Shown here: piece by piece, positions 2,121-62,978 of the stretch
Numbering within the stretch: the stretch's first letter is position 1
Layout of the letters: the number at the start of each line of letters is the position of its first letter
Origin: an uncultured bacterium
GTDB lineage: Bacteria; Lernaellota; Lernaellaia; JACKCT01
Direction of reading: 5' to 3'
Length of the DNA stretch: 64,000 bases
Assembly: GCA_964591275.1 (NCBI GenBank)
Contig: CAZQAE010000001.1
Coordinates: forward strand, 51,988-115,987
The notes under the pieces: model-generated
What the model saw: only the letters and a program-made list of their open reading frames with translations
The model's database searches: none
What the model was told of the DNA's origin: nothing
Position numbers and translations under genes: made by a program

Positions 2121-2927
2121 ATGAAGGGTCGTCAGGCAGCGGTTTTGGCGGTTTTGTGCTTGGTTCTCGCCCTCGTTTCATTTGGCTGCGGCCCTAAGGA
2201 TTATCCCCCGGAACTTCTTCAGGCCAAATCGGCTTTAGCTGATTCCAAGGCTGAGGGAGCTTCGGAAAACTGCCCTGATGAATATGCATCGGCAGAGGCC
2301 ATGCTGCAAAAAGCCGAAATCCTTTGGGAAGAGGACGAAGACACGGAAATGAAGGTCGTTGCGGCCGAGGCTGAGAAGCTTGCTCTTGGTGCCAGGGAAT
2401 GCACGATTGCCAAGGCCAGCACCATGTCCACAACGGGGACCGCCCCCGGAATGGCTATTCCGAAGGAATTGGGTGAGTTTTCTGAATCGATTTATTTCGG
2501 CTTCAATGAGAATGCCATTGGGAGAGAGGATGCCGAAAAGCTCAGGGCGACTGCTGAGCTGATCAAATCTTTCCAGGAAGAAACCCGATTCTGGGTGCTT
2601 CTTTCAGCTTACACCGACAACGTCGGGAAAACGGCGGATAACATTGAGATATCCCGTCGTCGCGGAGTTGTGGTTCGCTATTTCCTGATCGATCAGGGAG
2701 TTCTGCCGGAAAACCTTCTGATTCGCCCCCTGGGTGTGAATAGTGTGACGGCTATGTCTTCCACTGCGGACGGATCTGTGGCGATTCCAGTGAAAAATAA
2801 AAAGAAAAAACTGGATCCGGAGATGCGGAAGGTTGTCATAACCATAGTTCCTCTCGGCGATATTGCCGGACATCGCGTCGGTGATCCCTACATGTCCGAA
2901 GGGTCGCTGGTGAGAAAGAAAAAATAA
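2121..2927 (+). CDS. OmpA/MotB-domain lipoprotein
   Basis: GGAGGA RBS lies 7 nt upstream of ATG 2121. Signal peptide ends in lipobox-like SFGC. The C-terminal OmpA-like peptidoglycan-binding domain has FGFNENAIGREDAEKL...YTDNVG...ISRRRGVVVRYFL. Confidence 0.8.
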   Translation: MKGRQAAVLAVLCLVLALVSFGCGPKDYPPELLQAKSALADSKAEGASENCPDEYASAEAMLQKAEILWEEDEDTEMKVVAAEAEKLALGARECTIAKASTMSTTGTAPGMAIPKELGEFSESIYFGFNENAIGREDAEKLRATAELIKSFQEETRFWVLLSAYTDNVGKTADNIEISRRRGVVVRYFLIDQGVLPENLLIRPLGVNSVTAMSSTADGSVAIPVKNKKKKLDPEMRKVVITIVPLGDIAGHRVGDPYMSEGSLVRKKK

Positions 2928-6812: not shown

Positions 6813-6841
6813 AAATTTTATTTAGGTTTCAAAGCAGGGCA

Positions 6842-6855
6842 AAGTCAATTGACTT
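6842..6855. promoter_or_regulatory. Perfect 14-bp palindrome aagtcaattgactt in the 50-bp divergent promoter between the B12-rSAM and the rSAM/SPASM pair
   Basis: The sequence is its own reverse complement. It lies between the minus start at 6812 and the plus start at 6863 (TTG at 6854 is the alternative start). Confidence 0.4.
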
Positions 6856-6862
6856 GCCAAAA

Positions 6863-8005: not shown

Positions 8006-9054
8006 TTCCGCGATTGCCGAGCGCAGCCGATATCAAGATGATGGTGGCTTTTCCCCGCGTGACGATTCGCGCAATGCGTGGATGGCTCAGGGCCTTCGCC
8101 GGGTTGCGCAGGCCTTTGCACGGCGTGGAATTCTGCGTGACCTATCAATGTCTACTCGATTGTCCGCACTGCCTGACGAAATTGCTGATCGACGAAAAAA
8201 GGAAGGAAATGTCGAAAGAGCAGGCGACGCGCGCGATTCGGGAACTGGCCGACCTTGGGGCAATATTTGTTAATATTACCGGCGGTGAGCCGCTTTTGCG
8301 CGCGGATATTTTCGACATTTTGGCTGAAGCGACGAAGCGCCGGGATTTACTGGTGACGTTGGCGAGCAGCGGTTTGACAATTGATCGCAAAATCGCCGAG
8401 GAACTCAAAAAAGTGCGAGTCGGCATTGTCGTCCTTTCTCTGGACGGACCGGATGCCGCGAGCCATGACGCCTGTCGTGGAATGAGCGGCGCCTTCGACG
8501 CTTTGATGAAGGCGGTCCAGGAACTGGGGCGAGTGAAAATGCCGGTCTGGTTCACGACGATTCTGACAAAGGAAAATGCGCGGGACGGGAGCATTTTCGA
8601 AACGGCGCGTCTCGCGCAAAAACTTGGCGGAGTGTTGACGGTGAACTGGGCCTACGCCGTGGGAAAGAATTGGTCGGATCGTGAGGGGCTGGTCGGCGAA
8701 GCGGAGCGGGAGGCTTTCAGACGCCTGATGCTCATGCCGCACGTGCGCTGGGAGGGATCGTCCAATTTCCTGGAGGAAGGATGCCCGGCGGGAACGGAGA
8801 AGTTATACGTGACGCCTTACGGCGATGTGTTTCCGTGCGCCTGCATCCAGGCCAGCTTTGGGAATATGCTGGAGATGCCGGTTGCCGAAATCTGGCGAAA
8901 AATGGGGCGGATCAAGGATTTCGACGGGCGACATAAATCCTGCCTTGTGTCATGTGATGAAAATTTCATCCGGGATCATTTCGCGGCCATTCAAAAGAAT
9001 CCTGGAAGTCACGCTGAAGATATATTCAATGCGACTGATGGACGCGGCATGTAG
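8002..9054 (+). CDS. Radical SAM / SPASM-domain protein, paralog 2 (translationally coupled to paralog 1)
   Basis: CLLDCPHC and GGEPLL motifs. SPASM segment CPAG...PYGDVFPCACIQ. Collinear similarity with the upstream paralog (HVRWEGSSN[YF] and EGCPAG shared). ATGA start/stop overlap at 8002-8005. Confidence 0.85.
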   Translation: MIPRLPSAADIKMMVAFPRVTIRAMRGWLRAFAGLRRPLHGVEFCVTYQCLLDCPHCLTKLLIDEKRKEMSKEQATRAIRELADLGAIFVNITGGEPLLRADIFDILAEATKRRDLLVTLASSGLTIDRKIAEELKKVRVGIVVLSLDGPDAASHDACRGMSGAFDALMKAVQELGRVKMPVWFTTILTKENARDGSIFETARLAQKLGGVLTVNWAYAVGKNWSDREGLVGEAEREAFRRLMLMPHVRWEGSSNFLEEGCPAGTEKLYVTPYGDVFPCACIQASFGNMLEMPVAEIWRKMGRIKDFDGRHKSCLVSCDENFIRDHFAAIQKNPGSHAEDIFNATDGRGM

Positions 9055-9178: not shown

Positions 9179-11491
9179 ATGAGATTAGATCGTATGATTT
9201 CAGTTTTTATCCTGGTTTTGTTCGTTGCTTTTGGTTCGGCGTGCCTTGGCTGTGGCGACGATGACGACGATAGCGGCGGGGATTCTGTTGCTGACGATGA
9301 TGTCAATGATGACCTTGACGACGACATCGACGACGACGTCGATGATGACTTGAACGACGACGTTGACGATGACGTCGATGATGACGTCGACGATGATGCG
9401 GACGATGACGTTGACGATGACGTGAACGATGACGTGGACGACGACATTGACGATGATGTCGATGACGACACAACGGAGCCGACAACGACTACGACTGTCA
9501 CCACCACGACGACCACGAGCACCACAACCACGACCATCGCTTGCGAAGGCGTGCATGCGAATTTCGACCCCAGCCCGGACGCCGGATTCTTCGACATGCC
9601 TTTCCCAAACAATTTGCGCATCGAGGACGACGGCACGATCCGAATCCTGGACTTTCCGAATCCCAGAGGCGCCGCCCTGGTAACCCGTTATCTGGAAGAA
9701 GGCGATGAAGAAGCCAAGGGCTTCGGCGCCAACTCCGGCACATTCTTTAGCTTCAACGAAGCCATTGATCCGGCATCGCTTCCGGCCACGCCCGCAGATT
9801 CGATTCTTGAAACGGCTTCGGCTTTTCTGATCAGCGTCGATTCAGCGTCGCTCGATTACGGAACGCTCTATCCCGTGCGCTTCAACTTCATGGCGGACGC
9901 CACGGTTTACGCCCCGGCCAATTTTCTGGTTATGCTTCCTGTGCAGGGCGTGCCATTGCTGCACGGCGCAACCTACGCGGCTGTGTTGACAAAAGATGTG
10001 CTGGATGACCTCGGCGCGCCGATTACAGCCTGCGAAAACTTCGAGCAGGTACTGGCGGGAACTTCGGATAACGCGGATGCCAATGTTGTGTACGCGCCGC
10101 TGAGGGATTTCCTGGCGACCGACGCTTTCTTCGGCCAAGAGGACGTGGCCATGGCCACGGTTTTTACAACGAACGATCCGCTCCCGCCTCTTTTGGCCAT
10201 GCGGGATCATATTTACAGCTATACCATGAACCCTATCGACGCCGATGCTTTGACCGTGCTGTACGAACGAACCAATTACTATTTCCTGGGAGGCACTGTG
10301 ACGGTGCCTTATTACCAGTCTGGGACATCGCCTTTCTTCCTGCCCCCCGAGGGCGGAGACATCGTTTTTGATGAGTTCGGCGTTCCCATCGTGCAAGAGG
10401 ATGTCGCGATCCGGATATCGCTGTGTATTCCCAAGGGAACGATGCCTGCCGACGGCTGGCCCATGGTGATCTATTCCCACGGATCAGGCGGTGATTATGA
10501 GTCTCTGCGCGGGAGTCATGGGCCGGCGAATATATTGGCGAGACGTGGAATCGCCAGTGTTTCCTCCGATGCTCCATACCATGGCGATCGCAATCCGTTT
10601 CCAGATGTCCTTGATCCATCCATGTTGTTCTACAACGCTCTGAACCCCGATGCTTTCAGAGACAACAACATCCAGGCCGCCGTGGAACTGATGGCCATAC
10701 AAAAGCTGGTGGCGGACCTGCGTATCGCGCAGACCCTCGTGCCTGCTTCCGACGGATCGGCGTCGCCGGACAGCCTGGTGGGATTGGACCTGGATAATTC
10801 TTTCTTCATGGGTCATTCCCAGGGCGCCATCATCGGTTCCTTGATGACCGCCGTTGATCCGCACCTCAAGGCGTCCTACTTCAGCGGCGCCGGCGCGAGC
10901 CTGATGTGGAATATTCTGACGAAAACGAGTCCCATGAATATCGGCGAACTCGTTGCGGTGACAGGACTGCTGCTGACTCCGGCGGAAGCCGCCATCGAGT
11001 TCGACGAGTTTCATTCGACCTTAAACATCATCCAGCATATTTCGGACGTGGTCGATCCTTCATCGATCAACACTTACCTGTACGAGCGGGAAGTCGCCGG
11101 CAGTGAGCCAAAACACGTTTTCCAGGCGCTGGGCGTGACGGACACATACGTGGAAAAAACCTGCCAGGGCGCTTTTGCCGCCGCGGGGTACATGGATATG
11201 GTGGGGCCCGTGCTTGACCAGGACGCCGTGGACCGGATTACATTCACCGGCGGCCAGGTTCTTGCCGACACGGGCGTGACTGGAAACAGAACGGATTATA
11301 ACGGCGACCCGATAACGGCGGCTTTCACGCAATACCCGGCGCCCGTCGATCCGGATGAGGACGGCCACTTCGTTTCCTTCGAGTATGAGTCCATGAAACT
11401 GCGCATTGCGTGCTTCTTCCGCACGATGATCGACAACGGTGTGCCGACCTTCGTGCCCCTGGTCGAGGATGAATACGCTGCGTGTGAATAA
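9179..11491 (+). CDS. Secreted/lipoprotein alpha/beta-hydrolase with N-terminal poly-Asp and poly-Thr linkers
   Basis: GAGGGGAG RBS upstream of ATG 9179. Signal peptide ends in FGSAC/LGCG. This is followed by about 75 aa of (DDDX)n, then a T-rich linker. Catalytic domain has HGSGG and the GHSQG nucleophile elbow (GxSxG). Confidence 0.75.
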   Translation: MRLDRMISVFILVLFVAFGSACLGCGDDDDDSGGDSVADDDVNDDLDDDIDDDVDDDLNDDVDDDVDDDVDDDADDDVDDDVNDDVDDDIDDDVDDDTTEPTTTTTVTTTTTTSTTTTTIACEGVHANFDPSPDAGFFDMPFPNNLRIEDDGTIRILDFPNPRGAALVTRYLEEGDEEAKGFGANSGTFFSFNEAIDPASLPATPADSILETASAFLISVDSASLDYGTLYPVRFNFMADATVYAPANFLVMLPVQGVPLLHGATYAAVLTKDVLDDLGAPITACENFEQVLAGTSDNADANVVYAPLRDFLATDAFFGQEDVAMATVFTTNDPLPPLLAMRDHIYSYTMNPIDADALTVLYERTNYYFLGGTVTVPYYQSGTSPFFLPPEGGDIVFDEFGVPIVQEDVAIRISLCIPKGTMPADGWPMVIYSHGSGGDYESLRGSHGPANILARRGIASVSSDAPYHGDRNPFPDVLDPSMLFYNALNPDAFRDNNIQAAVELMAIQKLVADLRIAQTLVPASDGSASPDSLVGLDLDNSFFMGHSQGAIIGSLMTAVDPHLKASYFSGAGASLMWNILTKTSPMNIGELVAVTGLLLTPAEAAIEFDEFHSTLNIIQHISDVVDPSSINTYLYEREVAGSEPKHVFQALGVTDTYVEKTCQGAFAAAGYMDMVGPVLDQDAVDRITFTGGQVLADTGVTGNRTDYNGDPITAAFTQYPAPVDPDEDGHFVSFEYESMKLRIACFFRTMIDNGVPTFVPLVEDEYAACE
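9254..9540 (+). repeat. Coding low-complexity repeat: 12-nt periodic GAT/GAC (DDDV/I/N/L)n followed by ACN-rich poly-Thr tract
   Basis: Tandem GACGACGA[CT]NNN units are seen directly. They generate shadow ORFs on other frames and on the opposite strand. Confidence 0.8.
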
Positions 11492-11550: not shown

Positions 11551-13293
11551 TTAAAGTCTGTCCGAGCGACGCAGAACGACGAAATACTGGTTTTGGCACT
11601 TGGGATCTTCGACGTAATGGTCATCAATCCAGGATTTGAGTTCAGGATAGACCGGCGCGTGGTCCGTGAGAAAGAACCAGGGAATCTCGGCGCTTCGCGC
11701 TGAATAATAAACAACATTGATCGGCCCCGCGGCACGCAGGTCGCTTAAAAGTTCCTGCCGGGAATTGTGGACGTGCGGGCTGACGCGGTCATGCCATCGC
11801 CCGGAACCCCGCGGAAGATCGACCGCCACATCGAAGTACATGAAATGCCTAGTCGGCGCGCGCATCTGAGAATAGAAGTACAGATGCGGCGCATAGTCCC
11901 AGACGTATAGAGTATCTCCCGGCTCGCTGTGATCCCGTATGCATTCGGCCAGACGCCTCGATACGTGGCTGAGCGACGAGTAGCGCGGAACCGTTGTTTT
12001 GGTCCAGAAAAATCTCGATTCCTGCGTCCAGGCGGCGCGACCGAATTGCGTGATGTTTTGAAGAGCCTGCCGACCGAGCGTGACTTCCAGTTTCATGTCA
12101 TTGGTCGCTGCGGGGATTATCAAAAGCGCCAGCGTGATCCGCAATGCCAATGGAACCATGCGGTTCTGGCAGACCTTGCCGATCCAGGTTCCGGCTAAAA
12201 GCGCCAGCATTGGAATCAGCAGCATGAAATAGTGATCGAAAAATTTTGTGCCGGCGAAAACAGCCAGCATTGTCGCCACGATGTAGGCCGGCAATAAAAT
12301 CGATCCCGGCAAGCGCTCTGGCTCAGGTTTCTGGTTTGCGTGAAATGCAGCGATTACGCCCATCGCCGCCAGGAGCAAAAGTGTGCGTGTGTTGAAAAAG
12401 AAGGGCAGCAGACTTTCTTTGATCTGCAGATTCAAAAACCCCCATCCTTCCGTCGAAGCATATCCCACGTAGTTGGAAGGATTTAAGGCGCCCAGCATGG
12501 CTGCGAGACCGCCTTTGCCGGCGAAGAAGATCATGACAAGGGCGGTGAGGCAGGCGCCGCCGGCCACGTACAATCCCAGGGCACCTGGAATCGAGGCGAC
12601 CTTTTTGTTTCGCGGTGCGAGGTGCGTTTCTATGATGATGGCGAGGCCAAAGGCCATGACGTGCATCGCGGCCTGTTGCTTGAACATGACGCCCAGGGCG
12701 GCGAAAAGACCCGCCAGAAACAGAAGGGATCGCCATTGAACCTTGCGGGAGAACGCTTCCAGCAACAGGTAAAATGTCAAAATCGTCGGCAGAAGAGTCC
12801 AGGTTTCAAAGTTGGCGCACAGGCCGTTGCCCGCGGAATTCGCTGAGTACGCCGCGTACAAAAAAGCCGTCGCCAGTCCCGCGGGCAGGCCGCTCAAACG
12901 GCGGGCGAGAAAAAACAGCGCCAAAGCGCATAGCGCGTGGTAAATTATAGTCAGCCACGCGATGGGCAGCATCGATTCGCCGAACAGGCGAAAGACGAGA
13001 TTGAACAGCAGATACGCGCCGGGAGGTTTGGTCTCCACGGCGTTTTGATATATGGATCCCGGCTCGAAGAAAAATTGCGAACTGTAGGCGGCGCCGCCAA
13101 CGTCGGGGTCGCAAATGACGTTGTCTATGAGGGGGCTTCGCAGAAGATGCGTGAAAGCGAAAATGCGCCACAGGGCATAAAGGACGATCAATATCTTCGC
13201 GCCGCCGGTGATGGCTCTTTGATGCCTTCGCCAAAAACCGCCGATGAGTTCAGAGGCGGATTCCAGCAGGCCTGATATTGGGATCTTTCTCAA
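11551..13293 (-). CDS. GT39/ArnT-like (PMT_2 family) membrane glycosyltransferase
   Basis: 580-aa polytopic membrane protein resembling 4-amino-4-deoxy-L-arabinose / dolichyl-phosphate-mannose transferase family proteins. TTG start. Confidence 0.65.
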   Translation of the reverse strand: MRKIPISGLLESASELIGGFWRRHQRAITGGAKILIVLYALWRIFAFTHLLRSPLIDNVICDPDVGGAAYSSQFFFEPGSIYQNAVETKPPGAYLLFNLVFRLFGESMLPIAWLTIIYHALCALALFFLARRLSGLPAGLATAFLYAAYSANSAGNGLCANFETWTLLPTILTFYLLLEAFSRKVQWRSLLFLAGLFAALGVMFKQQAAMHVMAFGLAIIIETHLAPRNKKVASIPGALGLYVAGGACLTALVMIFFAGKGGLAAMLGALNPSNYVGYASTEGWGFLNLQIKESLLPFFFNTRTLLLLAAMGVIAAFHANQKPEPERLPGSILLPAYIVATMLAVFAGTKFFDHYFMLLIPMLALLAGTWIGKVCQNRMVPLALRITLALLIIPAATNDMKLEVTLGRQALQNITQFGRAAWTQESRFFWTKTTVPRYSSLSHVSRRLAECIRDHSEPGDTLYVWDYAPHLYFYSQMRAPTRHFMYFDVAVDLPRGSGRWHDRVSPHVHNSRQELLSDLRAAGPINVVYYSARSAEIPWFFLTDHAPVYPELKSWIDDHYVEDPKCQNQYFVVLRRSDRL

Positions 13294-14802: not shown

Positions 14803-14873
14803 GAAATTTGAAACATGACAGCCTTGTTTTACTAATTCCTTGTCGTAATGCAAAGAGATGAATTTGAATTGTC

Positions 14874-25391: not shown

Positions 25392-26876
25392 ATGCGTTGG
25401 ATTTGCATGTTGTTTGCGTTGATTGTCTTGCCCCTGGCCGTCGCGTCCGCGGACGAGCTTGAGGATAGAGCGCTTTTGCATGAGCAGTGGTTTAACGAAT
25501 ACCATGTGTCGCCGTACGGCGGATCGGGCTACGCCTATTTCACGGCGCCCGACTCAGACGAAGTGGATCATTATTCTTTTGGCGATTCAACGATCTGGAC
25601 GGGAACCTATTTGGCCTCGGAAAGTTTCCGCTACGCCGTCACCGGAGATCAAGACGCCAAGGCCAACGCCATTCGCACCGTGAACGCGCTAGATTCTCAC
25701 CTGAAAATCACGCAGGTTCCGGGATTTATTGCCCGCTTCGCCGGGCCGGACGAAGCGCCCTGGAATACTGCCTATACGGAGCATGACCGATACGTGCCTG
25801 GCACGGGTGAATGGGCGGGATCTTTTTGGATAAACAATACGAGCCGCGATCAATATACCGGTTGGTTTTTTGGTATGGTGGTGGCTTATGACTTGATCGA
25901 CGACGAAGAAACCAGGGCCTTGATTCGGGAAGATGTCCAGGAAGTGATAGACGAACTGCGGGCGGATTATTATTGGATTCTTGGCGAAAATGGTTTGCCC
26001 ACCGACGCCGGACCGCAGGTGATCGGCATCATGCGTGTCTGCTGGCATTTGATAGCCGCGCACATTCTCGACACCCCAGAATATTGGGCGCAGTACGAAC
26101 AGGTTTTTGAAGATCAGAAATCGGGCCTTGGGATCAGTTCGTTTTCACTGATGAATAAATATTATCAGTACTATGGACTCAACCTGTCTCACGAAACCTT
26201 TTTCAACCTTCTGCGGCTTGAACGAAATCCGGTGCGCCGGAAATTCTATCTCGACATATTTCACACGCATATCCGGCACCTTGTTGAACTCACGCACAAC
26301 GTGTTCTTTGATGACATCTACTTGGCCAACTGCGAGCGGGCAGGGGAATGCCGCTATTATGACGAGACCTTGGAAGACGTTCAAAATCAGCTTTTTGATT
26401 TTCAGGATCCGCCGGTTCGGGAAGTGCCTCTTGAGATTCCTGATTGGCCTCTCGATCCTTTCACCGTGACGATTTCGGCTCTGATAGACGCCCTCAACAT
26501 TCGAGAATTAATCGACATCGAGCCGCAAACCCTGGATGCTCGTCCCGTAAAATGGCGATGTCCCCGTTCATTCATGTGGCAAAAGACTCCGTACAACATT
26601 GATTGCCCCGGTGGCGACGGGACCGAAGTGTATCCGGGGATCGACTATATGATCGCGTATTGGATGGGTCGCTATTATAACTTTATTGAGCCCGGCAATC
26701 CCAACGAGATCACCTGGCCTCCCGACGAGGCGGTCGATGACGATGACGACGCCGATGATGATGTCGATGACGACGATACGGCGTCAGATGACGACACAAG
26801 CGATGATGATGAGCAACCTTCGCCTGATGCCGATGATGACGAGGACGACGATGACGAAAAAGGTTGCGGGTGCTAA
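25392..26876 (+). CDS. Secreted hypothetical protein with C-terminal poly-Asp tail ending in GCGC
   Basis: AGGAGG RBS 5 nt upstream of ATG 25392. Signal peptide MRWICMLFALIVLPLAVASA. About 45-aa acidic tail DDDDDADDDVDDDDTASDDD...DDDDEKGCGC. Confidence 0.6.
   Translation: MRWICMLFALIVLPLAVASADELEDRALLHEQWFNEYHVSPYGGSGYAYFTAPDSDEVDHYSFGDSTIWTGTYLASESFRYAVTGDQDAKANAIRTVNALDSHLKITQVPGFIARFAGPDEAPWNTAYTEHDRYVPGTGEWAGSFWINNTSRDQYTGWFFGMVVAYDLIDDEETRALIREDVQEVIDELRADYYWILGENGLPTDAGPQVIGIMRVCWHLIAAHILDTPEYWAQYEQVFEDQKSGLGISSFSLMNKYYQYYGLNLSHETFFNLLRLERNPVRRKFYLDIFHTHIRHLVELTHNVFFDDIYLANCERAGECRYYDETLEDVQNQLFDFQDPPVREVPLEIPDWPLDPFTVTISALIDALNIRELIDIEPQTLDARPVKWRCPRSFMWQKTPYNIDCPGGDGTEVYPGIDYMIAYWMGRYYNFIEPGNPNEITWPPDEAVDDDDDADDDVDDDDTASDDDTSDDDEQPSPDADDDEDDDDEKGCGC
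26735..26858 (+). repeat. Coding GAT/GAC poly-Asp repeat
   Basis: Tandem GA[TC]GA[TC] units. On the +1 frame they read as the Met/Thr-rich N-terminal extension of track ORF 26686..27873. Confidence 0.75.
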
Positions 26877-56642: not shown

Positions 56643-57617
56643 ATGACAAAGAAATTCTGGATATTGATGCTGGCTCTGATTATGGCTCTGGCCGTGGCGT
56701 TCGCATGCGGCGGCGACGACGACGACGACGATGATGGTGATGATGACGATGATCCGGGATTGGGAGATTCGGGAGTGATTCATGGTTTCGTTCGCGATTT
56801 CCAAACGAAGGTGGAAGTTAATAACGCCGATGTGGAAGCCGTTAACGATGAGACGGGCGAATCTTTCGACCCACCGCTGACCTTTACAACCGGCGCCGAC
56901 GGCGAGGTGAGTTTTGAGATTTCTTCGGAAGAGGAGTTCGTTGGAATTCTCGTAAAGAAGGAAGGCAGCCTGGACACAATCCAATTCCATTTCAAGGTTG
57001 GATTGGCAAATGAGGAGTTCCTGCTTATCAACGAAGGCACCAGGGACCTGATGCTGCTTTCATTGGACATTGACATGGATGAGTCGAAGGCAGTTGTCGC
57101 CGGGGGCATTTATTGGGGCGATCCTTTGGATGAAGACGCCGTAGGATGTTCTATGGTGAGTTTTGAGCCGGATGATGGCGTGGGCGTCTATTACTTTGGC
57201 CCGGACGCTTTGCCGAACGCGGCCCGCACCGTTCCTGACGGCCAAACATCCTCAAACGGCCAGGGAACCCTGGAGGGTTACGCCCAGTCCGATGACCATG
57301 CATTAAGCTATTACGTGAGCGTCAACAAAACTCCCGACACCGATGTGAAACTCTTTGCATCCATTTATAGTGTGGAGAACGCCGACTTGGATGGGGCAAA
57401 GGACGACGACGTCGATGGCGATGTGGATGACGACGTAGATGATGACGTCGATGACGATGCGGATGATGATGCGGATGATGATGAACCTTCGTTCACGTCG
57501 GTGAGGGAAAAAAACGTTATTCCGTTGCTCAAGGCCAACACGGCGACCATCGTGAATGTTTATTTTCCAAGGACTACGTATGACGCAAATCCCACTCCGG
57601 CCTGGTGCACGGAATAA
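56643..57617 (+). CDS. Lipoprotein with poly-Asp linkers and carboxypeptidase-regulatory-like beta-sandwich region, paralog A
   Basis: Signal peptide with AFAC lipobox-like motif, then GGDDDDDDDGDDDDD. Central region GVIHGFVRDFQTKVEVNNADVEAVNDETGESFDP. Second DDDV repeat near the C-terminus. Ends TPAWCTE. Confidence 0.6.
   Translation: MTKKFWILMLALIMALAVAFACGGDDDDDDDGDDDDDPGLGDSGVIHGFVRDFQTKVEVNNADVEAVNDETGESFDPPLTFTTGADGEVSFEISSEEEFVGILVKKEGSLDTIQFHFKVGLANEEFLLINEGTRDLMLLSLDIDMDESKAVVAGGIYWGDPLDEDAVGCSMVSFEPDDGVGVYYFGPDALPNAARTVPDGQTSSNGQGTLEGYAQSDDHALSYYVSVNKTPDTDVKLFASIYSVENADLDGAKDDDVDGDVDDDVDDDVDDDADDDADDDEPSFTSVREKNVIPLLKANTATIVNVYFPRTTYDANPTPAWCTE
57403..57484 (+). repeat. Coding GAT/GAC poly-Asp repeat (internal, paralog A)
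   Basis: Tandem GACGACGTNGAT units. A shorter tract lies at 56711..56752. Confidence 0.7.
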
Positions 57618-57740: not shown

Positions 57741-58691
57741 ATGAACAAAAATCTGTTTATGGTCCTCGCATTTCTGATGATGGGGATATTTGCCGTAACG
57801 GCTGTATTTGTCGGCTGCGGCGACGATGACGATGATGATGACGATGACGATGATGTGGTTGACGATGACGCTGACGACGACGATGTCGATGATGATGTCA
57901 ACGACGATGTCGATGACGATGTCGATGATGATGTGGATGATGATGTGGATGACGATATCGCGGACGACGCCATCGCTGGTGTTGTCGTGGACTTCAAGGA
58001 AAGGACTATCCTGGCCGGCGCAACGGTCGAAGCCATTGATGATGCCACAGGCGCTTCATTCGATCCGGCCATTACGGGCGATTCGAATGCTGAAGGCTAC
58101 GTTTTGCTGGAAGGCATTCCCGCAGGCAAAGGCGCCGTTGGACTTAAGGTGACCAAGGGCGGTTACGTTGACACCATTCAATACCATTTCCCGACCGGCG
58201 TAAGCGACACGGAGATTCTGGCCGTTTCTTCCGCTACGCAGACCTTGCTCGCGGGTATTTTGCTTCTTCCTGTTCAAGCCGGCAAGGGATTCGCATCCGG
58301 CGGCGTGTATTGGGTTAATGAAGCTGGTGAAGAAGAGTACATTGGCTGCGCTGAAGTGACCGCTGATCCCAATACGATCAACGACGGCATTCACTACTTC
58401 CAATACATGGCATTGATGGACACTTTTGTGCCGACCCTTGATCGCGACATCGCTACGTCCGGTGATCCGCAGGACGGCGAAGGAACGAATCCCGATACGA
58501 GTTACTTTCTCGGCGCCAACGCCGATCCCGGCGCATACACGATTACGGCGACAGCCGGCGACAACAACGATCTGACAGCCACCTCGGTCATTCCGATGGT
58601 TTTCGCCGACAGCATCGTTATCACAACCGTGCTGTTCCAGTTCGAGGACTACCCCACGAACCCGACAGCGACCTGGTGCACCTCCAAGTAA
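57741..58691 (+). CDS. Lipoprotein with poly-Asp linker and carboxypeptidase-regulatory-like region, paralog B
   Basis: Signal peptide with FVGC, then 50-aa (DDDV)n tract. AGVVVDFKERTILAGATVEAIDDATGASFDP aligns with paralog A. Ends TATWCTSK. Confidence 0.6.
   Translation: MNKNLFMVLAFLMMGIFAVTAVFVGCGDDDDDDDDDDDVVDDDADDDDVDDDVNDDVDDDVDDDVDDDVDDDIADDAIAGVVVDFKERTILAGATVEAIDDATGASFDPAITGDSNAEGYVLLEGIPAGKGAVGLKVTKGGYVDTIQYHFPTGVSDTEILAVSSATQTLLAGILLLPVQAGKGFASGGVYWVNEAGEEEYIGCAEVTADPNTINDGIHYFQYMALMDTFVPTLDRDIATSGDPQDGEGTNPDTSYFLGANADPGAYTITATAGDNNDLTATSVIPMVFADSIVITTVLFQFEDYPTNPTATWCTSK
57822..57970 (+). repeat. Coding GAT/GAC poly-Asp repeat (paralog B)
   Basis: 12-nt periodic GATGACGATGTN units. 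The opposite strand reads as the Ser-rich shadow ORF 57737..58072. Confidence 0.75.
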
Positions 58692-58838: not shown

Positions 58839-60587
58839 ATGCGCTGGGGCCGATTGTGTGTGGTCGCCTTGTTCGCCGTCGTTCTTTTGCCATCGCTGGC
58901 TGCGGCGCAGGCTGACAAGTTCGACCTGAACGGATACTTCCAGGCTCAGTATGGATTGTTTACCAATACGGAGTATCACAACGAATCGGATATTGACGGT
59001 TTCCCGTCGAATCACGGCGACAGAGTGGGGAAGCCGTCGATGCTCAGGCACACGCTGCTGTTGGAAGCGGACTGGCGACCTTTTGACAACGTCAAGGTTC
59101 ATGCCGTTTTCCGTGGTGTCAGATCGGGGGCTTTGGGCGCGGACCGTTTCGCGCAGACCCCGGATATGGAATACGATTTAAAGTACAACCACGCCCCCGA
59201 AGTCATGGACGCGAAAATCCAAGCGACGCATAAGCGTTACTACAACGAAAACGAACTTCGTGAGATCTACGTGGACATCGACGCGACGGATAAGATCAAC
59301 CTTCGCGTGGGTCGCCAGCAAGTCAGTTGGGGCGACATGGCGACCTATCGACTTCTGGACGTGGTCAACCCCGTGGACGGAAGCTGGCATTTGCCGCCCT
59401 TTGAAGCTTTTGAGGACACGCGCAAACCCCTATACATGGCCAAGCTCCTGATCGACGTTCCGTGCCTGGAGGGAAACCTGGAAACTTTGTACATTCCCCT
59501 GATGGACGATCCTGAGGACACGGTGACCACGCCGGCCACATTTTACGGTGCATGGGGTTTGCCCGTTGGGTCGAAAAACGATTACGTTTCGGACCTTAGG
59601 GTCGTCAATAAGATCACGCAATATCCCAAGAACGATCTTTCAGATGCACGCGTCGGCGCTCGTTGGAAAGGAATTCTTGGTGGATTGACCTACACGTTGG
59701 TCGCCTATCACGGGCATCAGTTGACGCCGCCGATTCCGGATTACGTCGTCAAGTCCTGGGAAACCGACGATGAAGGGTTCCACAATGCTGATGTCTATTT
59801 GCGTGTTCCAAGGTTGAACACTTACGGTTTCTCGGTCGATTACGCCTTCGAGTCTCCGGTGGGAATGGTGGTGAAACTGGAAGCGGCGGTGACTCCCGAA
59901 GTGCAATACGCCGTTAACTCGCCTCTTTCGGCTGGATTCACCACCGACAATCGCGTGGACAGCACATGGGAGGCCATTGATCCTTCGGCGGGCGCAGAGT
60001 CCGATCTCCGGGCCGATATGCACAGCGAAGAGAGGCACCACGCAGCCTACGCCCTGGAGCTGTTTCGCTCCAACCAGATTCGTTTCATCAATCCCAAGTC
60101 TTCCATCATCACCGTTTTCCGTATTTTCCAGGATTACTATTTCAATCCTGAAGACATCAACGAAGATGAGTACAAACTGGGGAATCCCTACGTCCTGGAA
60201 ACACTCGAGGATGGTTCGCGGGAAAGAAATGAAAACTGGTACATCGTTTACGTGCCCGGGTATGACAGCGCGCTGGCTGCTCCCATCAAAACGACGTTTG
60301 TGGCCGCCGCCTTCACGTCATATTTTCACGGCATGTTTACGCCGGGCGTCGTGGCTGTGTACCTGCCGCGCTATCCTGCGGAAATCGTTGACAGCAGTGA
60401 TGTCTTCGACTGGGAAACCATGGAAAATGGCTCCGGCTTCGTGAGCGCAACAATGAAATTCAGTTTTGGAAACCACTGGCGATTAGCTACGGGATATAAT
60501 TACCTGCAGGGGGCTGATCCCTATTACGATTTGGGATTCTTCCGGGATCGCGACGAGGTTTACGCAAAGGTTCGTTATCAATTCTAG
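58839..60587 (+). CDS. DUF1302 family outer-membrane protein
   Basis: Signal peptide, then the family-typical GYFQAQYGLFT...LRVGRQQVSWGD...LLDVVNP architecture. 582 aa. Confidence 0.75.
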   Translation: MRWGRLCVVALFAVVLLPSLAAAQADKFDLNGYFQAQYGLFTNTEYHNESDIDGFPSNHGDRVGKPSMLRHTLLLEADWRPFDNVKVHAVFRGVRSGALGADRFAQTPDMEYDLKYNHAPEVMDAKIQATHKRYYNENELREIYVDIDATDKINLRVGRQQVSWGDMATYRLLDVVNPVDGSWHLPPFEAFEDTRKPLYMAKLLIDVPCLEGNLETLYIPLMDDPEDTVTTPATFYGAWGLPVGSKNDYVSDLRVVNKITQYPKNDLSDARVGARWKGILGGLTYTLVAYHGHQLTPPIPDYVVKSWETDDEGFHNADVYLRVPRLNTYGFSVDYAFESPVGMVVKLEAAVTPEVQYAVNSPLSAGFTTDNRVDSTWEAIDPSAGAESDLRADMHSEERHHAAYALELFRSNQIRFINPKSSIITVFRIFQDYYFNPEDINEDEYKLGNPYVLETLEDGSRERNENWYIVYVPGYDSALAAPIKTTFVAAAFTSYFHGMFTPGVVAVYLPRYPAEIVDSSDVFDWETMENGSGFVSATMKFSFGNHWRLATGYNYLQGADPYYDLGFFRDRDEVYAKVRYQF

Positions 60588-60631
60588 GCTGTTGCGAAAA
60601 GCTTCGACAATCGCCAAATGGAGGTTATGAA

Positions 60632-61909
60632 ATGAGGTTAAAAAAAATTGCTCTGTTATCGGCTGTGGCTGCGCTGGTCATAGGGGTAGCGACCGTGGCC
60701 GTGGGACAGGGGAAAATAACGCGCGGCAACTGGGCTGAATCCGTTGGTTTCAAACCTGACTTGTCGGGTATGCCCAAAGCCGGAGAAGTTATCAGCGCCG
60801 GCAATCTCGACCAATACAAGTCCGTCATCCCCGGCGGCGTTCAAATGCTGATCAAAAAATACGGTTTCAAGGTATGGACGAAGGATTACGAGTCAGTAGC
60901 TCCTGCCGACAGCTATATCGCCGCGACAAATAAGCATATGGGAACGGCAAAAACCTTGGATCCGAATGCTCATTATCGCAAAATCGGGCTCAAGGGCTAC
61001 AAGGCCGGACTTCCTTTCCCGCATCCTAAAACCGGTGTTGAAGTGGCATGGAACTATACTTATTCCTATTCCGGTGACGATGCAAAAAACTGGTTCGGCG
61101 TTTATTGGATCAGCGCCAAAACCGGCATTGAACGCTCCGAGGATTGGACCTGGAACTACATTACGCGAGGCTGCTTCCGCACGGACATCGAGCCCATGCC
61201 CGATATCCCCGAAGCGCGTGCCAAGCGCATCCAATATTATTCGGTCACGACGGCGCTGTCGCCGCTCGACAAAAAAGGTTTCTCCGCCATGTACACGCGG
61301 AAAATCGAACCCAAGGATCAGCAGGGATACATCTACGTTCCGGCTCAGCGAAAATCAACGCGCTTCGCTTTCGGAACACGAGGTGACTCTTGGAACAACA
61401 CCGACATGCTCTATGAGGATGTGCGCGGATATATGGGTTATCCCGAATGGATGACATGGAAGATCGTCGAGAAAAAGACGATGCTTCTGCCCATGAACGC
61501 CGACGTCCCACACGGGAAGGCTAATATCAGCAAGGTTTACGATTTCGACAGAGCGCCCCATTGGAACTTCAAAGCCAAGTGGGAGCCGCGACCCGTATAC
61601 GTCGTCGAGGCCAAAGCCAAATTCCCGGATTATCCTTATAGCAAGATGGTCTTCTACTTTGATGCGGAGCTATCCTATGTTTGCGTGAAAGATGCTTACG
61701 ACAAGAAGGGGCAACTCTGGAAAGTTCTTGTCAACGCCTGGAATAAGGCAGACGATCCGCACTCTACGCCGTCGCCCGTCGGCACCTCCCTGGTCGTTGA
61801 CTTGCAAGCTGAGCACGCGACGGCCTTCGGTTGGCACAAGTCCCTGTCCAATGTGGGCCTGACGCCTGGGGACTTCAGCCTAGCCAATCTCCGCAAGCTC
61901 GGGAAGTAA
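60632..61909 (+). CDS. DUF1329 family (LolA-like fold) periplasmic protein
   Basis: GGAGG RBS. Signal peptide. Typical DUF1329 length (425 aa). Conserved pairing immediately downstream of a DUF1302 gene. Confidence 0.75.
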   Translation: MRLKKIALLSAVAALVIGVATVAVGQGKITRGNWAESVGFKPDLSGMPKAGEVISAGNLDQYKSVIPGGVQMLIKKYGFKVWTKDYESVAPADSYIAATNKHMGTAKTLDPNAHYRKIGLKGYKAGLPFPHPKTGVEVAWNYTYSYSGDDAKNWFGVYWISAKTGIERSEDWTWNYITRGCFRTDIEPMPDIPEARAKRIQYYSVTTALSPLDKKGFSAMYTRKIEPKDQQGYIYVPAQRKSTRFAFGTRGDSWNNTDMLYEDVRGYMGYPEWMTWKIVEKKTMLLPMNADVPHGKANISKVYDFDRAPHWNFKAKWEPRPVYVVEAKAKFPDYPYSKMVFYFDAELSYVCVKDAYDKKGQLWKVLVNAWNKADDPHSTPSPVGTSLVVDLQAEHATAFGWHKSLSNVGLTPGDFSLANLRKLGK

Positions 61910-61913
61910 TCGC

Positions 61914-62978
61914 ATGAACAAAAGTCGCCTGACAGGGGGCCTCATTCTGAGGCCCTTGATCCTTTGCATCATCGTTTTGCCGTTTATTACGACCTCCCTG
62001 GCTTTGGCTTCGGATTTCGACCCGAAGGTCCCCGTCGCCTTTCGTGACCGGCTCTATGATGTTCAGTTTATTTCCGAAACCGAAGCCATCATTATTGGCT
62101 ATCCGGGTAAGATTTTCAGAAGCGCCGACGGCGGAGAAACTTGGGAACGCATCACCATCGACACAACGGAGCCGCTGTTTTCGCTGCATTTCATCAATGC
62201 GAAAACCGGCTGGATCGCCGGAAGAAGCGGTTTGATCTTCATCACGGGAGACGGTGGAAAAACCTGGACGAAGCAGGACAGCGGCGTGAGTGAGCATCTT
62301 TTCGGCATTCATTTTTTCAATGAAAAAGTCGGCGTCGCCGTCGGCAACTTCGGCGTCATTGTTAACACTGTTGACGGAGGAAAAACGTGGTCTGGTCAAA
62401 TCCTCCAGGAGATGTCTTCGGCGACTATATACGCAGTGCAAATGCTCGACGAAAACACTGGCTTTCTGGTGGGTGAGTATCCAATATGGGAAGCGGATTT
62501 GGAAGAAGATGTCGAGGCCTCCACTTTGAGTAGTGTTTTCAAAACCTCCGACAGCGGCGTTACATGGGAGCGCGTGGAGGTTCCGACCGAGTCTCACCTT
62601 TTTGATCTCGAATTTGTCAGTGCGCTGGAAGGATACGCCGTTGGGACGAAGGGATTGGTGCTCAAGACTCTGGATGGCGGAGTGACCTGGGAAGTTTTCA
62701 AAGCGCCGACGCCCTTCCATCTTCTGAGCGTTGAAGCTCATGGCGATACTGTTGTGGCTGTGGGAAACGCGGGGACCGCCGTTTACAAGAAAGGCGGCGA
62801 AATCAAAATTCCCCCAACGGGAGCCTATTCCTGGATTGGGTCTGTGAGCTTCAATAAAAAAGGCCGGGGGATTCTCGTGGGCGACCACGGCCTCATCATG
62901 CTCTCGGAAGATAAAGGCAATACGTGGACTTGCCTGTCGCCGACATGCAAAGGCGTTGACCAACAAAAAACGAAGTGA
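61914..62978 (+). CDS. BNR/Asp-box repeat protein (Ycf48-like beta-propeller)
   Basis: Repeated S/T-x-D-G-G-x-T-W Asp-box motifs (SADGGETW, TGDGGKTW, TVDGGKTW, TLDGGVTW, SEDKGNTW). Confidence 0.75.
   Translation: MNKSRLTGGLILRPLILCIIVLPFITTSLALASDFDPKVPVAFRDRLYDVQFISETEAIIIGYPGKIFRSADGGETWERITIDTTEPLFSLHFINAKTGWIAGRSGLIFITGDGGKTWTKQDSGVSEHLFGIHFFNEKVGVAVGNFGVIVNTVDGGKTWSGQILQEMSSATIYAVQMLDENTGFLVGEYPIWEADLEEDVEASTLSSVFKTSDSGVTWERVEVPTESHLFDLEFVSALEGYAVGTKGLVLKTLDGGVTWEVFKAPTPFHLLSVEAHGDTVVAVGNAGTAVYKKGGEIKIPPTGAYSWIGSVSFNKKGRGILVGDHGLIMLSEDKGNTWTCLSPTCKGVDQQKTK

What the first reader, a model, noticed from the sequence alone, without database searches (positions are those of the whole stretch)
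9179..11491. Family of secreted/lipo-proteins carrying long (DDDX)n poly-aspartate tracts, four of them directly after the lipobox cysteine
Five proteins in this window carry 15-75-residue poly-Asp tracts with a 4-residue DDD[VINLA] period. They are the products at 9179, 25392 (C-terminal tail), 56643 (two tracts), 57741 and, more weakly, others.

In four of the five the tract starts immediately after the predicted acylated Cys (CGGDDDD / GCGDDDD). The encoding DNA is a 12-nt GAY/GAC periodic repeat prone to slippage.

Possible roles are divalent-cation (Ca2+/Mg2+) binding, a mineral- or polymer-binding tether, or a Lol-sorting signal. This looks like a lineage-specific envelope feature.
Basis: seen in the sequence. 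Interest (0 to 1): 0.6.

Follow-up and report, generated by a model that had tools for sequence, protein, structure and literature searches.

The report
Poly-aspartate tethers beside terminal cysteine anchors
Four exported proteins in this window carry long, disordered aspartate-rich spacers that always sit next to a cysteine motif at one end of the protein, either a normal N-terminal lipoprotein anchor or an undescribed C-terminal "poly-Asp then GCGC, then stop" tail, which probably hold degradative enzymes at the cell surface of an uncultured FEN-1099 (Lernaellota)-like bacterium.

Summary
The tracts are real and not chance, but the counts need correcting. There are four proteins with five tracts. 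Three tracts, not four, follow a lipobox Cys. The DNA is an imperfect 12-nt repeat scrambled at synonymous sites, and it is identical in three assemblies.

The proteins are not one family: a lipase-like hydrolase, two paralogous beta-sandwich lipoproteins, and an unrelated secreted protein.

In orthologues the tract fills the hypervariable slot between the anchor Cys and the folded domain. It stays D-rich while its length (about 11-75 aa) and period (4, 5 or 6) drift. AlphaFold2 predicts it is disordered.

Short C-G-D(6) starts occur after lipoprotein signal peptides in many phyla. They resemble known sorting motifs: the Bacteroidota LES, the Pseudomonas GDD signal, and the type II secretion (T2SS) lipoprotein motif. 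Long periodic tethers came from only eight metagenome-assembled genomes (MAGs), including FEN-1099.

The new point is the C-terminal tract of protein b, which ends ...DDDDEKGCGC-stop. This tail recurs on at least 30 unrelated secreted hydrolases in metagenomes, never together with a lipobox. It matches the GCGC signature of MYXO-CTERM but has no membrane helix and no Arg cluster.

Best reading: polyanionic spacers next to terminal Cys anchors of surface exoenzymes. This is a new variant of known kinds. Function is untested.

The parts
9179..11491 (+). Gene (a): 770-aa lipoprotein. Layout is signal peptide, lipobox, poly-D tether, poly-Thr, then a lipase-like alpha/beta hydrolase domain.
   Evidence: ORF. 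The gene is called at these coordinates in the public assembly. Weak TIGR03502 VolA/Pla-1 hit, 1.3e-13, at aa 408-559. 67 homologues found.
9242..9253 (+). Lipobox region of (a), ..GSA-C22-L-G-C25-G... Either Cys could be the acylated one.
   Evidence: Sequence read directly. The two-Cys pattern C-x-x-C-G is also present in orthologue P0001.
9257..9469 (+). Poly-D tether of (a): DDDDD-SGGDSVA-(DDDX)15, 71 aa.
   Evidence: TRF reports period 12 with 74% matches.
9470..9535 (+). Poly-Thr segment (TTEPTTTTTVTTTTTTSTTTTT), a second low-complexity linker block in (a).
   Evidence: The equivalent block is longer (38 aa) in orthologue P0001.
25392..26876 (+). Gene (b): 494-aa secreted protein with a signal-peptidase-I type signal peptide (..LAVASA|DELED) and no lipobox.
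   Evidence: 1432 homologues at E<=0.001 among 1.84 billion representative proteins. No Pfam or NCBIfam hit.
26736..26861 (+). C-terminal acidic tail of (b): DDDDDADDDVDDDDTASDDDTSDDDEQPSPDADDDEDDDDEK.
26862..26876 (+). Terminal GCGC motif of (b) followed by the TAA stop codon.
   Evidence: All 13 homologues of (b) that have a D-rich tail end in a Cys motif. The same ending occurs on 30 unrelated ORFs in metagenomes.
56643..57617 (+). Gene (c): 324-aa lipoprotein (..AFA-C22-GG..) with a tandem beta-sandwich fold. It is a paralogue of (d).
56715..56753 (+). Short N-terminal D tether of (c): D7-G-D5.
57402..57482 (+). Internal (DDDX)n tract of (c). It is a loop insertion found in only 1 of 13 aligned family members.
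57741..58691 (+). Gene (d): 316-aa lipoprotein (..FVG-C26-G..) with a tandem beta-sandwich fold of the CarboxypepD_reg type.
   Evidence: AlphaFold2 model.
57822..57968 (+). Poly-D tether of (d): D11-VV-DDDA-DDDDV-(DDDV)n, 49 aa.
   Evidence: Residues 20-77 of the model have pLDDT 43-55 and no secondary structure.
58839..62978 (+). Downstream operon partners of (c) and (d): DUF1302 outer-membrane barrel (58839-60587), DUF1329 LolA-like protein (60632-61909) and a BNR/Ycf48-like protein (61914-62978). An MMPL/RND gene follows.
   Evidence: The same gene set with two lipoprotein paralogues is present in MAG CTOTU18725 (L066).

Best explanation
The Asp tracts are intrinsically disordered, strongly polyanionic spacers. 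Each joins the folded domain of an exported protein to a cysteine-based anchor motif at one end of the chain.

In proteins a, c and d the anchor is the ordinary N-terminal lipobox Cys. The first residues after it (C-G-D-D-D.. or C-G-G-D-D..) probably also act as the sorting determinant, either avoiding Lol or directing surface export. The remaining (DDDX)n then serves as a stalk of about 8-35 nm contour length.

In protein b the same kind of spacer sits at the C-terminus and ends in GCGC-COOH. This matches the MYXO-CTERM signature but lacks its membrane helix.

The tracts change length by gain and loss of 12-15-nt GAY-rich units. What selection retains is composition and disorder, not sequence.

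Shown: position, disorder prediction, behaviour in orthologues, association with terminal Cys motifs, and the classes of protein that carry the tracts.

Inferred: lipidation, surface location, sorting role, and any role of bound Mg2+ or Ca2+.
For: 1. Position. Three tracts start 1-2 residues after a lipobox Cys, and one ends 2 residues before a terminal GCGC.

2. Disorder. In the AlphaFold2 model of (d), residues 20-77 have pLDDT 43-55 and no secondary structure, while residues 78-316 score above 85.

3. The tract fills the linker slot in the orthologues of (a). The closest one (72% identity, syntenic) has the same layout. Orthologues at about 50% identity have irregular D-rich, Ala/Pro-rich or other linkers. 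Distant Myxococcota homologues have short linkers.

4. Composition is conserved while sequence is not. All 10 full-length homologues of (d) have a D-rich tether after the Cys. Length runs from about 11 to 75 aa and the period is 4, 5 or absent.

5. The repeat units are not recent copies. D-codon identity between adjacent units is 20/36 and no long perfect repeats exist. This argues against fresh slippage and for maintenance at the protein level.

6. The two anchors are mutually exclusive within the family of (b). Among the 150 best hits, 13 have a D-rich C-terminal tail and all 13 end in a Cys motif. Six have an N-terminal lipobox plus D tether and no C-terminal tail. None has both.

7. The C-terminal tail is general. 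30 ORFs ending (DDDX)n-Dn-GCGC-stop were found. All complete ones have signal-peptidase-I type signal peptides and none has a lipobox. They are unrelated exoenzymes, and one carries a 'choice-of-anchor J' domain.

8. The class of protein differs with the tether. D-tethered lipoproteins are GH92, GH88, GH3, penicillin amidase, pectin acetylesterase and sialidase-like enzymes. Lipoproteins without a D tether include the OmpA/Pal-like protein, both in this window and as its FR_14 orthologue, and SppA.

9. Precedents in the literature:
- Acidic residues at +3/+4 after the Cys form the Bacteroidota lipoprotein export signal, for example C-S-D-D-D-D (PMC5080379, PMC6222051).
- Disordered N-terminal linkers are needed for Lol trafficking in E. 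coli, where length matters and sequence does not (bioRxiv 10.1101/2021.01.05.425367).
- The MYXO-CTERM signature is a 'generic GCGC motif' with proposed Cys lipidation and delivery to the surface by type II secretion (PMC11980579).
Against: - No experiment or localisation data exist for any of these proteins.
- The internal tract of (c) sits in a loop, far from either terminus. L150 carries a (DDDV)n directly after a signal-peptidase-I cleavage site. The tracts are therefore not strictly tied to anchors.
- The residue at +2 varies among relatives (G, D, N, E, P, L, S), which weakens the case for a precise sorting code.
- A Cys at a free C-terminus with no membrane helix has no known lipidation route.
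- The association between tether and protein class rests on a few dozen proteins from loci that were chosen because they contain the motif.
- Whether this genome has type II secretion, Lol or myxosortase genes was not examined.
Confidence: 0.6

Rival explanations
1. Divalent-cation module. The main job of the tract is low-affinity, high-capacity binding of Ca2+ or Mg2+. This could buffer cations at the envelope, or bridge the anchor region to LPS or phospholipid phosphates, as acidic tails do in calsequestrin-type proteins. This idea is compatible with a tether role.
For: The tracts are 71-76% Asp with no basic residues: 48 D in 96 aa for (a) and 37 D in 51 aa for (d). They sit at the membrane-proximal end. 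Poly-Asp binding of Ca2+ is established chemistry (own knowledge, not tested here).
Against: No recognised Ca-binding motif was detected (no EF-hand, RTX or TSP3; no Pfam or NCBIfam hits). Some orthologues replace the D-rich linker with Ala/Pro-rich or other linkers (P0016, P0002, P0005). Overall Asp and Glu content of the window's proteins is ordinary, so there is no sign of general halophilic acidification.
Confidence: 0.2
2. Neutral low-complexity expansion. GAY-rich DNA expands by slippage or unequal recombination in any tolerated disordered segment of an exported protein, and the tract itself has no function.
For: Length and unit number differ between orthologues (15 against 11 units; about 11-75 aa across the family of d). 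The period varies between 4, 5 and 6. One tract is a lineage-unique loop insertion in (c). The tracts occur in unrelated proteins.
Against: D-richness is kept in every one of 10 homologues of (d) at 35-50% identity. The units are scrambled at synonymous sites rather than identical. Placement next to terminal Cys motifs is tight: 13/13 in the family of (b) and 30/30 GCGC tails. Long acidic runs are costly to translate in E. coli through intrinsic ribosome destabilisation (bioRxiv 10.1101/2021.02.02.429294).
Confidence: 0.13
3. Mineral- or polymer-binding tether. The poly-Asp attaches the enzymes to carbonate, phosphate or iron minerals, or to cationic polymers in the environment, as Asp-rich biomineralisation proteins do.
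For: Only the compositional resemblance to Asp-rich mineral-binding proteins, which surfaced in the literature search.
Against: The tract is at the membrane-anchored end of the protein, not the distal end. The proteins that carry it are ordinary hydrolases. No mineralisation genes are nearby.
Confidence: 0.04
4. Phase- or size-variable contingency locus. Repeat-number changes switch or resize surface lipoproteins within a population, as in Mycoplasma Vlp lipoproteins.
For: The repeats are coding repeats in surface-type proteins. All units are multiples of 3 nt, so size variation would be possible.
Against: Zero indels across three assemblies. The repeats are imperfect, with fewer than 2.5 perfect copies. 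In-frame repeats cannot switch expression on and off.
Confidence: 0.03

Closest known systems
Intrinsically disordered N-terminal linkers of outer-membrane lipoproteins (E. coli RcsF, Pal, NlpD; El Rayes et al., bioRxiv 10.1101/2021.01.05.425367)
   Same: A disordered segment between the sorting residues and the globular domain. Length matters and sequence does not. It is longer than 22 residues in about half of outer-membrane lipoproteins.
   Different: Here the linker is a near-homopolymeric polyanion of up to about 70 Asp-rich residues with a 4-5-residue period. The same module also appears at C-termini.
Bacteroidota lipoprotein export signal (LES): C-S-D-D-D-D, K-(D/E)2, CS(D/E)2 (PMC5080379, PMC6222051)
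   Same: A small or polar residue at +2 followed by Asp at +3 to +5. It is carried by surface-exposed glycoside hydrolases and other exoenzymes. Periplasm-facing lipoproteins lack it.
   Different: The organism is not shown to be Bacteroidota; its nearest named relative is a FEN-1099 MAG. The +2 residue is Gly. The acidic run continues for tens of residues. Function is untested.
[quoted passage not shown]
   Same: A Gly/Asp-rich stretch of more than 4 residues directly after the acylated Cys. C-G-D-D and C-G-G-D match the cited GDD/GGG forms.
   Different: The presence of a type II secretion system or GspN in this genome is unknown. The motif here is far longer and periodic.
MYXO-CTERM (TIGR03901) C-terminal sorting domain processed by myxosortase MrtX (PMC11980579; bioRxiv 10.1101/2023.06.07.544157)
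   Same: A GCGC signature with conserved Cys at the C-terminal end of Sec-exported proteins of unrelated function, preceded by a disordered region. A canonical copy preceded by DDDDGGDDS exists in a FEN-1099 MAG (L092: 30.5 bits against a cut-off of 20).
   Different: Protein (b) and 30 metagenomic ORFs stop immediately after GCGC. No membrane helix or Arg cluster follows in any frame and there is no HMM hit. The precursor already ends where MrtX is proposed to cut.
Pro/Thr- or Ser/Thr-rich linkers of secreted glycoside hydrolases and PEP-CTERM proteins
   Same: Low-complexity spacers between an anchor or module and the catalytic domain. Protein (a) has such a poly-Thr block right after its poly-D block.
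   Different: Different chemistry: a charged tract that is not an obvious glycosylation target.

Membership tests
Bacterial lipoprotein (signal peptidase II substrate) | N-terminal signal peptide with a basic n-region, a hydrophobic h-region and a lipobox [LVI..][ASTG..][GAS]-C | tested here: met
   Found by sequence inspection and a regex. (a) reads MRLDR-MISVFILVLFVAFGSA-C-LG-C. (c) reads MTKK-FWILMLALIMALAVAFA-C. (d) reads MNKN-LFMVLAFLMMGIFAVTAVFVG-C. No dedicated predictor such as SignalP or LipoP was available. Which Cys of (a) is acylated is ambiguous.
Bacterial lipoprotein (signal peptidase II substrate) | Actual diacylglyceryl modification by Lgt and cleavage by Lsp | not testable with these tools
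   Requires biochemistry.
Disordered lipoprotein linker (El Rayes et al.) | A disordered segment longer than 22 residues between the sorting residues and the globular domain | tested here: met
   In (d), residues 27-77 have pLDDT 43-55 and no secondary structure. The linker of (a) is about 96 aa and that of (c) about 23 aa by alignment to homologues.
Disordered lipoprotein linker (El Rayes et al.) | The linker is required for efficient Lol-dependent outer-membrane targeting | not testable with these tools
   Requires genetics in a tractable host.
E. coli-type Lol avoidance signal | Asp at position +2 | tested here: not met
   Position +2 is Gly in a, c and d. Some relatives do have C-D-D-D (L066 paralogue, P0083).
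Bacteroidota LES | A polar or small residue at +2 followed by at least 2 Asp/Glu at +3 to +5 | tested here: met
   C-G-D-D-D-D in a and d, and C-G-G-D-D-D in c. The match is in form only, with Gly in place of Ser, Lys or Gln.
Bacteroidota LES | Host belongs to Bacteroidota and has that phylum's lipoprotein export machinery | tested here: not met
   The best named TsaD relative (65% identity, with OmpA-TsaD-RsmA synteny) lies in assembly GCA_027493875.1, isolate FR_14 'FR-FEN-1099-1'. No Bacteroidota affinity was seen.
Type II secretion / GspN-dependent surface lipoproteins | A Gly/Ser-rich or Asn/Asp-rich motif of more than 4 residues at P2'-P8' | tested here: met
   G-D-D-D-D-D-S-G in (a), G-G-D-D-D-D-D-D in (c) and G-D-D-D-D-D-D-D in (d). 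Criterion taken from PMC12802150.
Type II secretion / GspN-dependent surface lipoproteins | The genome encodes a type II secretion system with GspN, and export depends on it | not tested
   No such genes are in the 64-kb window. The rest of the genome was not examined.
MYXO-CTERM (TIGR03901) | Cys-containing signature (generic GCGC) near the C-terminus of a Sec-exported protein | tested here: met
   Protein (b) ends ..EKGCGC and has a signal-peptidase-I type signal peptide.
MYXO-CTERM (TIGR03901) | A transmembrane helix immediately after the signature | tested here: not met
   The stop codon follows GCGC directly. No hydrophobic segment is encoded downstream in any frame, in the window or in the 30 metagenomic examples.
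MYXO-CTERM (TIGR03901) | An Arg-rich cluster at the extreme C-terminus, and an HMM score above the cut-off | tested here: not met
   No NCBIfam hit for (b) or its tail, even at E<=10. The positive control, the L092 tail, scores 30.5 bits against a cut-off of 20.
Contingency (phase- or size-variable) repeat locus | Near-perfect tandem repeats with length polymorphism within populations | tested here: not met
   74-80% unit identity, fewer than 2.5 perfect copies, and zero indels among three assemblies. Read-level data were not available.

The most novel reading that the evidence does not exclude
The tail '(DDDX)n - poly-D - GCGC - stop' is a previously undescribed C-terminal anchoring or sorting tag that lacks a transmembrane helix. 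It would be the mirror image of the lipobox + poly-D N-terminus. FEN-1099/Lernaellota-like bacteria would use it to fix secreted hydrolases to the cell surface through modification of the terminal cysteines (lipidation, or a thiol linkage to a partner). If so, MYXO-CTERM-type Cys modification can occur without a membrane-embedded precursor, and the poly-Asp segment is an integral part of the signal.
Probability: 0.3. Interest if true: 0.8.

Novelty: new variant of a known kind. Interest (0 to 1): 0.6.

Why it matters
Lipoprotein tethers and the residues just after the anchor Cys decide where envelope proteins end up. Outside Proteobacteria, Bacteroidota and spirochaetes the rules are largely unknown.

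This lineage offers an extreme and easily recognised case: tens of Asp residues next to the anchor, on a broad set of degradative enzymes.

It also offers a matched C-terminal form ending in the MYXO-CTERM signature GCGC but without the membrane helix. That bears on an open question in the MYXO-CTERM field, namely which enzyme modifies the Cys and what it recognises.

In practice, the two motifs give a simple sequence rule for predicting the probable surface exoenzymes of an uncultured phylum that has been inferred to degrade polysaccharides and proteins (PMC9324843).

Tried and rejected
- One homologous family. Rejected. Only c and d align (29% identity). Proteins a and b have different folds and different homologues.
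- Assembly artefact or copy-number variation. Rejected at the assembly level, because three assemblies are identical. Reads could not be examined.
- Functional link to the radical-SAM/SPASM genes upstream of (a). Rejected, because they are absent from the syntenic locus L126.
- Readthrough or frameshift into a hidden membrane helix after GCGC. Rejected. All three stop codons are used (TGA 17, TAA 7, TAG 6) and nothing suitable is encoded downstream in any frame.
- Salt-in halophile acidification. Rejected, because Asp and Glu content of other window proteins is ordinary.
- Provenance. Literature searches found no description of poly-Asp lipoprotein tethers, and the Lernaellota paper does not mention them. 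The sample 3300031657 could not be tied to a published site.
- Exact-sequence lookup of the three lipoproteins in the protein collection found nothing.
Only presence and absence and sample proportions can be stated.
- The fold search for (d) gave only generic beta-sandwich matches. The best was the lipid-binding C-terminal domain of Archaeoglobus fulgidus lipase, with a query-normalised TM-score of about 0.38. This is too weak to assign a function.
Full report
**1. Observation**

A six-frame scan for at least 10 Asp in any 16 residues finds five tracts in four ORFs and nowhere else in the 64 kb.
- (a) 9179-11491+. The tract is at nt 9257-9469 and reads DDDDD-SGGDSVA-(DDDX)15. A poly-Thr block follows at 9470-9535.
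- (b) 25392-26876+. A C-terminal acidic tail lies at 26736-26861 and is followed by GCGC and the stop codon.
- (c) 56643-57617+. There is a short tract D7-G-D5 at 56715-56753 and an internal (DDDX)n at 57402-57482.
- (d) 57741-58691+. The tract is at 57822-57968.

With Asp at 6.9% of residues, 0.00026 such 16-residue windows are expected. Shuffling residues within each protein produced a tract in 3 of 200 trials.

Period 4 is clear in a, c2 and d, where the D/non-D autocorrelation at lag 4 is 0.82-0.91. It is absent in b and c1.

There are four proteins, not five, and three tracts, not four, follow a lipobox Cys. Gly is at +2 in all three. In (a) either Cys22 or Cys25 could be the acylated residue.

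**2. The DNA**

Tandem Repeats Finder reports 12-nt periodicity with only 74-80% matches. The longest perfectly 12-periodic stretch is under 2.5 copies. GAC and GAT are mixed much as in the rest of the window. In (a), adjacent units share the same Asp codon in 20 of 36 comparisons, which is about random. The units are therefore not recent copies.

Contigs from two ENA assemblies and one JGI assembly carry the tracts with zero indels, and there is a single substitution in 2.6 kb. This rules out an assembly artefact and shows no copy-number variation, although the independence of these samples is unknown.

Over longer time the tracts do change. The syntenic orthologue P0001 (72% identity) has 11 units instead of 15 and a poly-Thr block of 38 residues instead of 22.

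**3. What the proteins are**

None of the four hits Pfam.
- (a) has a weak VolA/Pla-1 phospholipase match and 67 homologues, some annotated as esterases.
- (c) and (d) are paralogues at 29% identity. They lie upstream of genes for a DUF1302 outer-membrane barrel, a DUF1329 LolA-like protein, a BNR/Ycf48-like protein and an MMPL/RND transporter. The same operon, with two lipoprotein paralogues, is present in MAG CTOTU18725.
- An AlphaFold2 model of (d) has mean pLDDT 83. It shows a confident beta-rich body at residues 78-316. Residues 20-77, which include the whole tract, have pLDDT 43-55 and no secondary structure. Fold matches are generic beta-sandwiches.
- (b) has a signal-peptidase-I type signal peptide and belongs to a large uncharacterised family.

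These proteins are therefore not one family. They share a module.

**4. The tract fills the tether slot**

Among orthologues of (a):
- The closest has the same layout, C-GGGG-D6..(DDDX)n..poly-T.
- Those at about 50% identity carry irregular D-rich linkers, Ala/Pro-rich or other linkers, or none.
- Myxococcota homologues at 30-35% identity have short ordinary linkers.

In the family of (c) and (d), every one of 10 full-length homologues has a D-rich segment right after the Cys. Its length runs from about 11 to 75 residues. The period is 4 (DDDV), 5 (DDDDA, DDDAT, DDDTT) or absent. The internal tract of (c) is an insertion seen in only 1 of 13 aligned sequences.

Composition and position are conserved, but sequence and length are not. 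This is the behaviour described for disordered lipoprotein linkers in E. coli, where length matters and sequence does not (bioRxiv 10.1101/2021.01.05.425367).

**5. Distribution and lineage**

- 105 of these follow a signal-peptide-like hydrophobic stretch. They come from Chloroflexota, Actinomycetota, Bacteroidales, Myxococcota and others.
- The short motif is therefore widespread.
- Only 19 continue as long D-rich tethers. These come from eight MAGs, including FR_14 'FR-FEN-1099-1' and several labelled only 'bacterium'.

The window's TsaD has its best named relative (65% identity) on JAOSJX010000001.1 of that same FR_14 assembly, with the OmpA-lipoprotein, TsaD and RsmA genes in the same order. 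I infer that the window comes from a FEN-1099 (Candidatus Lernaellota)-related bacterium. The paper that named the phylum says nothing about these tracts.

**6. The C-terminal counterpart**

Protein (b) ends ..DDDEDDDDEKGCGC-stop. I searched its globular part against 1.84 billion representative proteins and examined the 150 best hits.
- 13 hits have a D-rich C-terminal tail, and all 13 end in a Cys motif within the last five residues (GCGC, ACGC, ACCG, GCGG and similar).
- Six others have an N-terminal lipobox plus a D tether and no C-terminal tail.
- None has both.

Unrelated proteins in related MAGs carry the same ending. A 906-aa ORF in L076 ends ..GGCCG, and a PKD-domain protein in L127 ends ..SGTCGK.

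A metagenome scan for DDDD-x(0-4)-C-G-C-stop, also limited by rows, gave 30 distinct ORFs of 150 aa or more ending (DDDX)n-D(5-13)-GCGC.
- All three stop codons are used, and no membrane helix or basic cluster is encoded downstream in any frame.
- Every complete example begins with a signal-peptidase-I type signal peptide, never a lipobox.
- The proteins are unrelated exoenzymes: a papain-type protease, GH10, GH84, metallophosphatases, phospholipase C, DUF2961, a peptidyl-arginine deiminase and an M28 peptidase. One carries a 'choice-of-anchor J' domain.
- The same contigs also encode lipoproteins with N-terminal D tethers, 7 of 13 predicted.

**7. Relation to known signals**

The MYXO-CTERM sorting domain has a 'generic GCGC motif' followed by a membrane helix and an Arg cluster. 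The Cys is proposed to be lipidated, with Lgt as a candidate enzyme. Myxosortase then cuts after it, and the type II secretion system delivers the protein to the surface (PMC11980579; bioRxiv 10.1101/2023.06.07.544157).

A FEN-1099 MAG (L092) encodes a canonical copy preceded by DDDDGGDDS. It scores 30.5 bits against a cut-off of 20. The tail of (b) gives no hit and lacks both the helix and the Arg cluster. It fails membership, but it looks like a MYXO-CTERM that ends exactly at the presumed cleavage point.

At the N-terminus, C-G-D-D-D resembles three known signals:
- the Bacteroidota lipoprotein export signal, C-S-D-D-D-D or CS(D/E)2 (PMC5080379, PMC6222051);
- the Pseudomonas GDD Lol-avoidance signal (PMC12802150).

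The E. coli rule of Asp at +2 is not met.

**8. Protein classes**

D-tethered lipoproteins in related loci include GH92, GH88, GH3, penicillin amidase, pectin acetylesterases, a sialidase-like BNR protein, and Lcl_C and TIG domain proteins.

Lipoproteins without a D tether include the peptidoglycan-binding OmpA/Pal-like protein, both in the window (2088-2927) and as its FR_14 orthologue, and an SppA-type peptidase.

The sample is small, and the loci were chosen because they contain the motif. Still, the pattern matches Bacteroides, where surface hydrolases carry the acidic signal and periplasm-facing lipoproteins do not.

**9. Mechanism proposed**

The tracts are polyanionic disordered spacers next to a terminal Cys anchor. 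Contour lengths are about 8 nm for (c), 18 nm for (d) and 35 nm for (a) including its poly-Thr block.

The membrane-proximal residues probably double as the sorting signal. The remainder keeps the enzyme extended and away from the anionic membrane or LPS, possibly with bound Mg2+ or Ca2+.

The regular V/I/L/A after every third Asp may ease translation, because acidic runs destabilise E. coli ribosomes and bulky residues counteract this (bioRxiv 10.1101/2021.02.02.429294). That point is inference only.

Cation binding is compatible with the tether role and untested. Neutral expansion is disfavoured by the conserved composition and the strict placement next to Cys motifs. Phase variation is disfavoured by the imperfect repeats and the identical assemblies.

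**10. Verdict**

The N-terminal tracts are an extreme variant of known lipoprotein linkers and sorting regions. The C-terminal poly-D + GCGC-stop tail is, as far as Pfam, NCBIfam and the searched literature show, undescribed. It is the most interesting outcome. All functional statements remain inference.

Noticed in passing
window 26736-26876; also L076, L127 and L128-L244: Secreted proteins that lack a lipobox end in a poly-Asp tail followed by GCGC (or CCG / CGG) and a stop codon. This is the MYXO-CTERM signature without its membrane helix. It occurs on at least 30 unrelated hydrolases in metagenomes.
   Followed up: yes
L092 (JACKCT010000001.1, MAG HK-STAS-FEN-2), 592-aa ORF on the minus strand: A canonical MYXO-CTERM domain (TIGR03901, 30.5 bits) lies outside Myxococcota, in a FEN-1099-labelled MAG. 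It is preceded by DDDDGGDDS.
   Followed up: partly
window 9242-9253; L029, L068, L087, L115, L123, P0074, P0001: Many lipoboxes in this lineage hold a second Cys two or three residues from the first (GCGCGDDD, SCSCGDDD, ACLGCGDDD). This mirrors the C-terminal DDD..GCGC ending. The second Cys would be a free thiol beside the lipid anchor.
   Followed up: no
window 9470-9535 and 11551-13293 (minus strand): A 22-residue poly-Thr block follows the poly-D tract of (a). A PMT_2-family glycosyltransferase gene lies just downstream on the opposite strand in both this window and the syntenic locus L126. O-glycosylation of the Thr linker is a possibility.
   Followed up: no
window 56643-64000: Operon of two beta-sandwich lipoproteins, a DUF1302 outer-membrane barrel, a DUF1329 (LolA-like) protein, a BNR/Ycf48-like protein and an MMPL/RND transporter, conserved in MAG CTOTU18725. 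The best structural match of lipoprotein (d) is the lipid-binding domain of Archaeoglobus fulgidus lipase, which hints at handling of hydrophobic substrates.
   Followed up: partly
window about 10604 (ends of L006 and L007): Contigs from two other assemblies (ERZ27316679 and JGI 3300031657) both break at the same point inside the lipase gene, about 1.4 kb after its start. This suggests strain-level divergence in the catalytic part of the gene.
   Followed up: no
L150 (Ga0307990_1000814) 180-932, minus strand: A 250-aa protein carries (DDDV)n directly after a signal-peptidase-I cleavage site (..AFAQN-DDVDDDV..) and also a poly-D + GCGC C-terminus. D tracts are therefore not restricted to the anchor-proximal end.
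   Followed up: no
window 646-1905, 5373-9054, 13330-14853 and 17305-21822: Five radical-SAM genes (two with B12-binding domains, two with SPASM domains) are interspersed with two large sulfatase-family genes. The SPASM proteins may be anaerobic sulfatase-maturating enzymes.
   Followed up: no
window 41345-52074 (minus strand): A putative exopolysaccharide cluster: a 1770-aa TPR protein, a GH8 enzyme, a family-2 glycosyltransferase, a DUF2334 protein and a GGDEF-domain protein.
   Followed up: no
window 26899-27873: An alpha/beta-hydrolase lipoprotein (..VFG-C-AFKPS..) without a D tether lies immediately after protein (b). My first crude ORF selection missed it in favour of spurious ORFs.
   Followed up: partly
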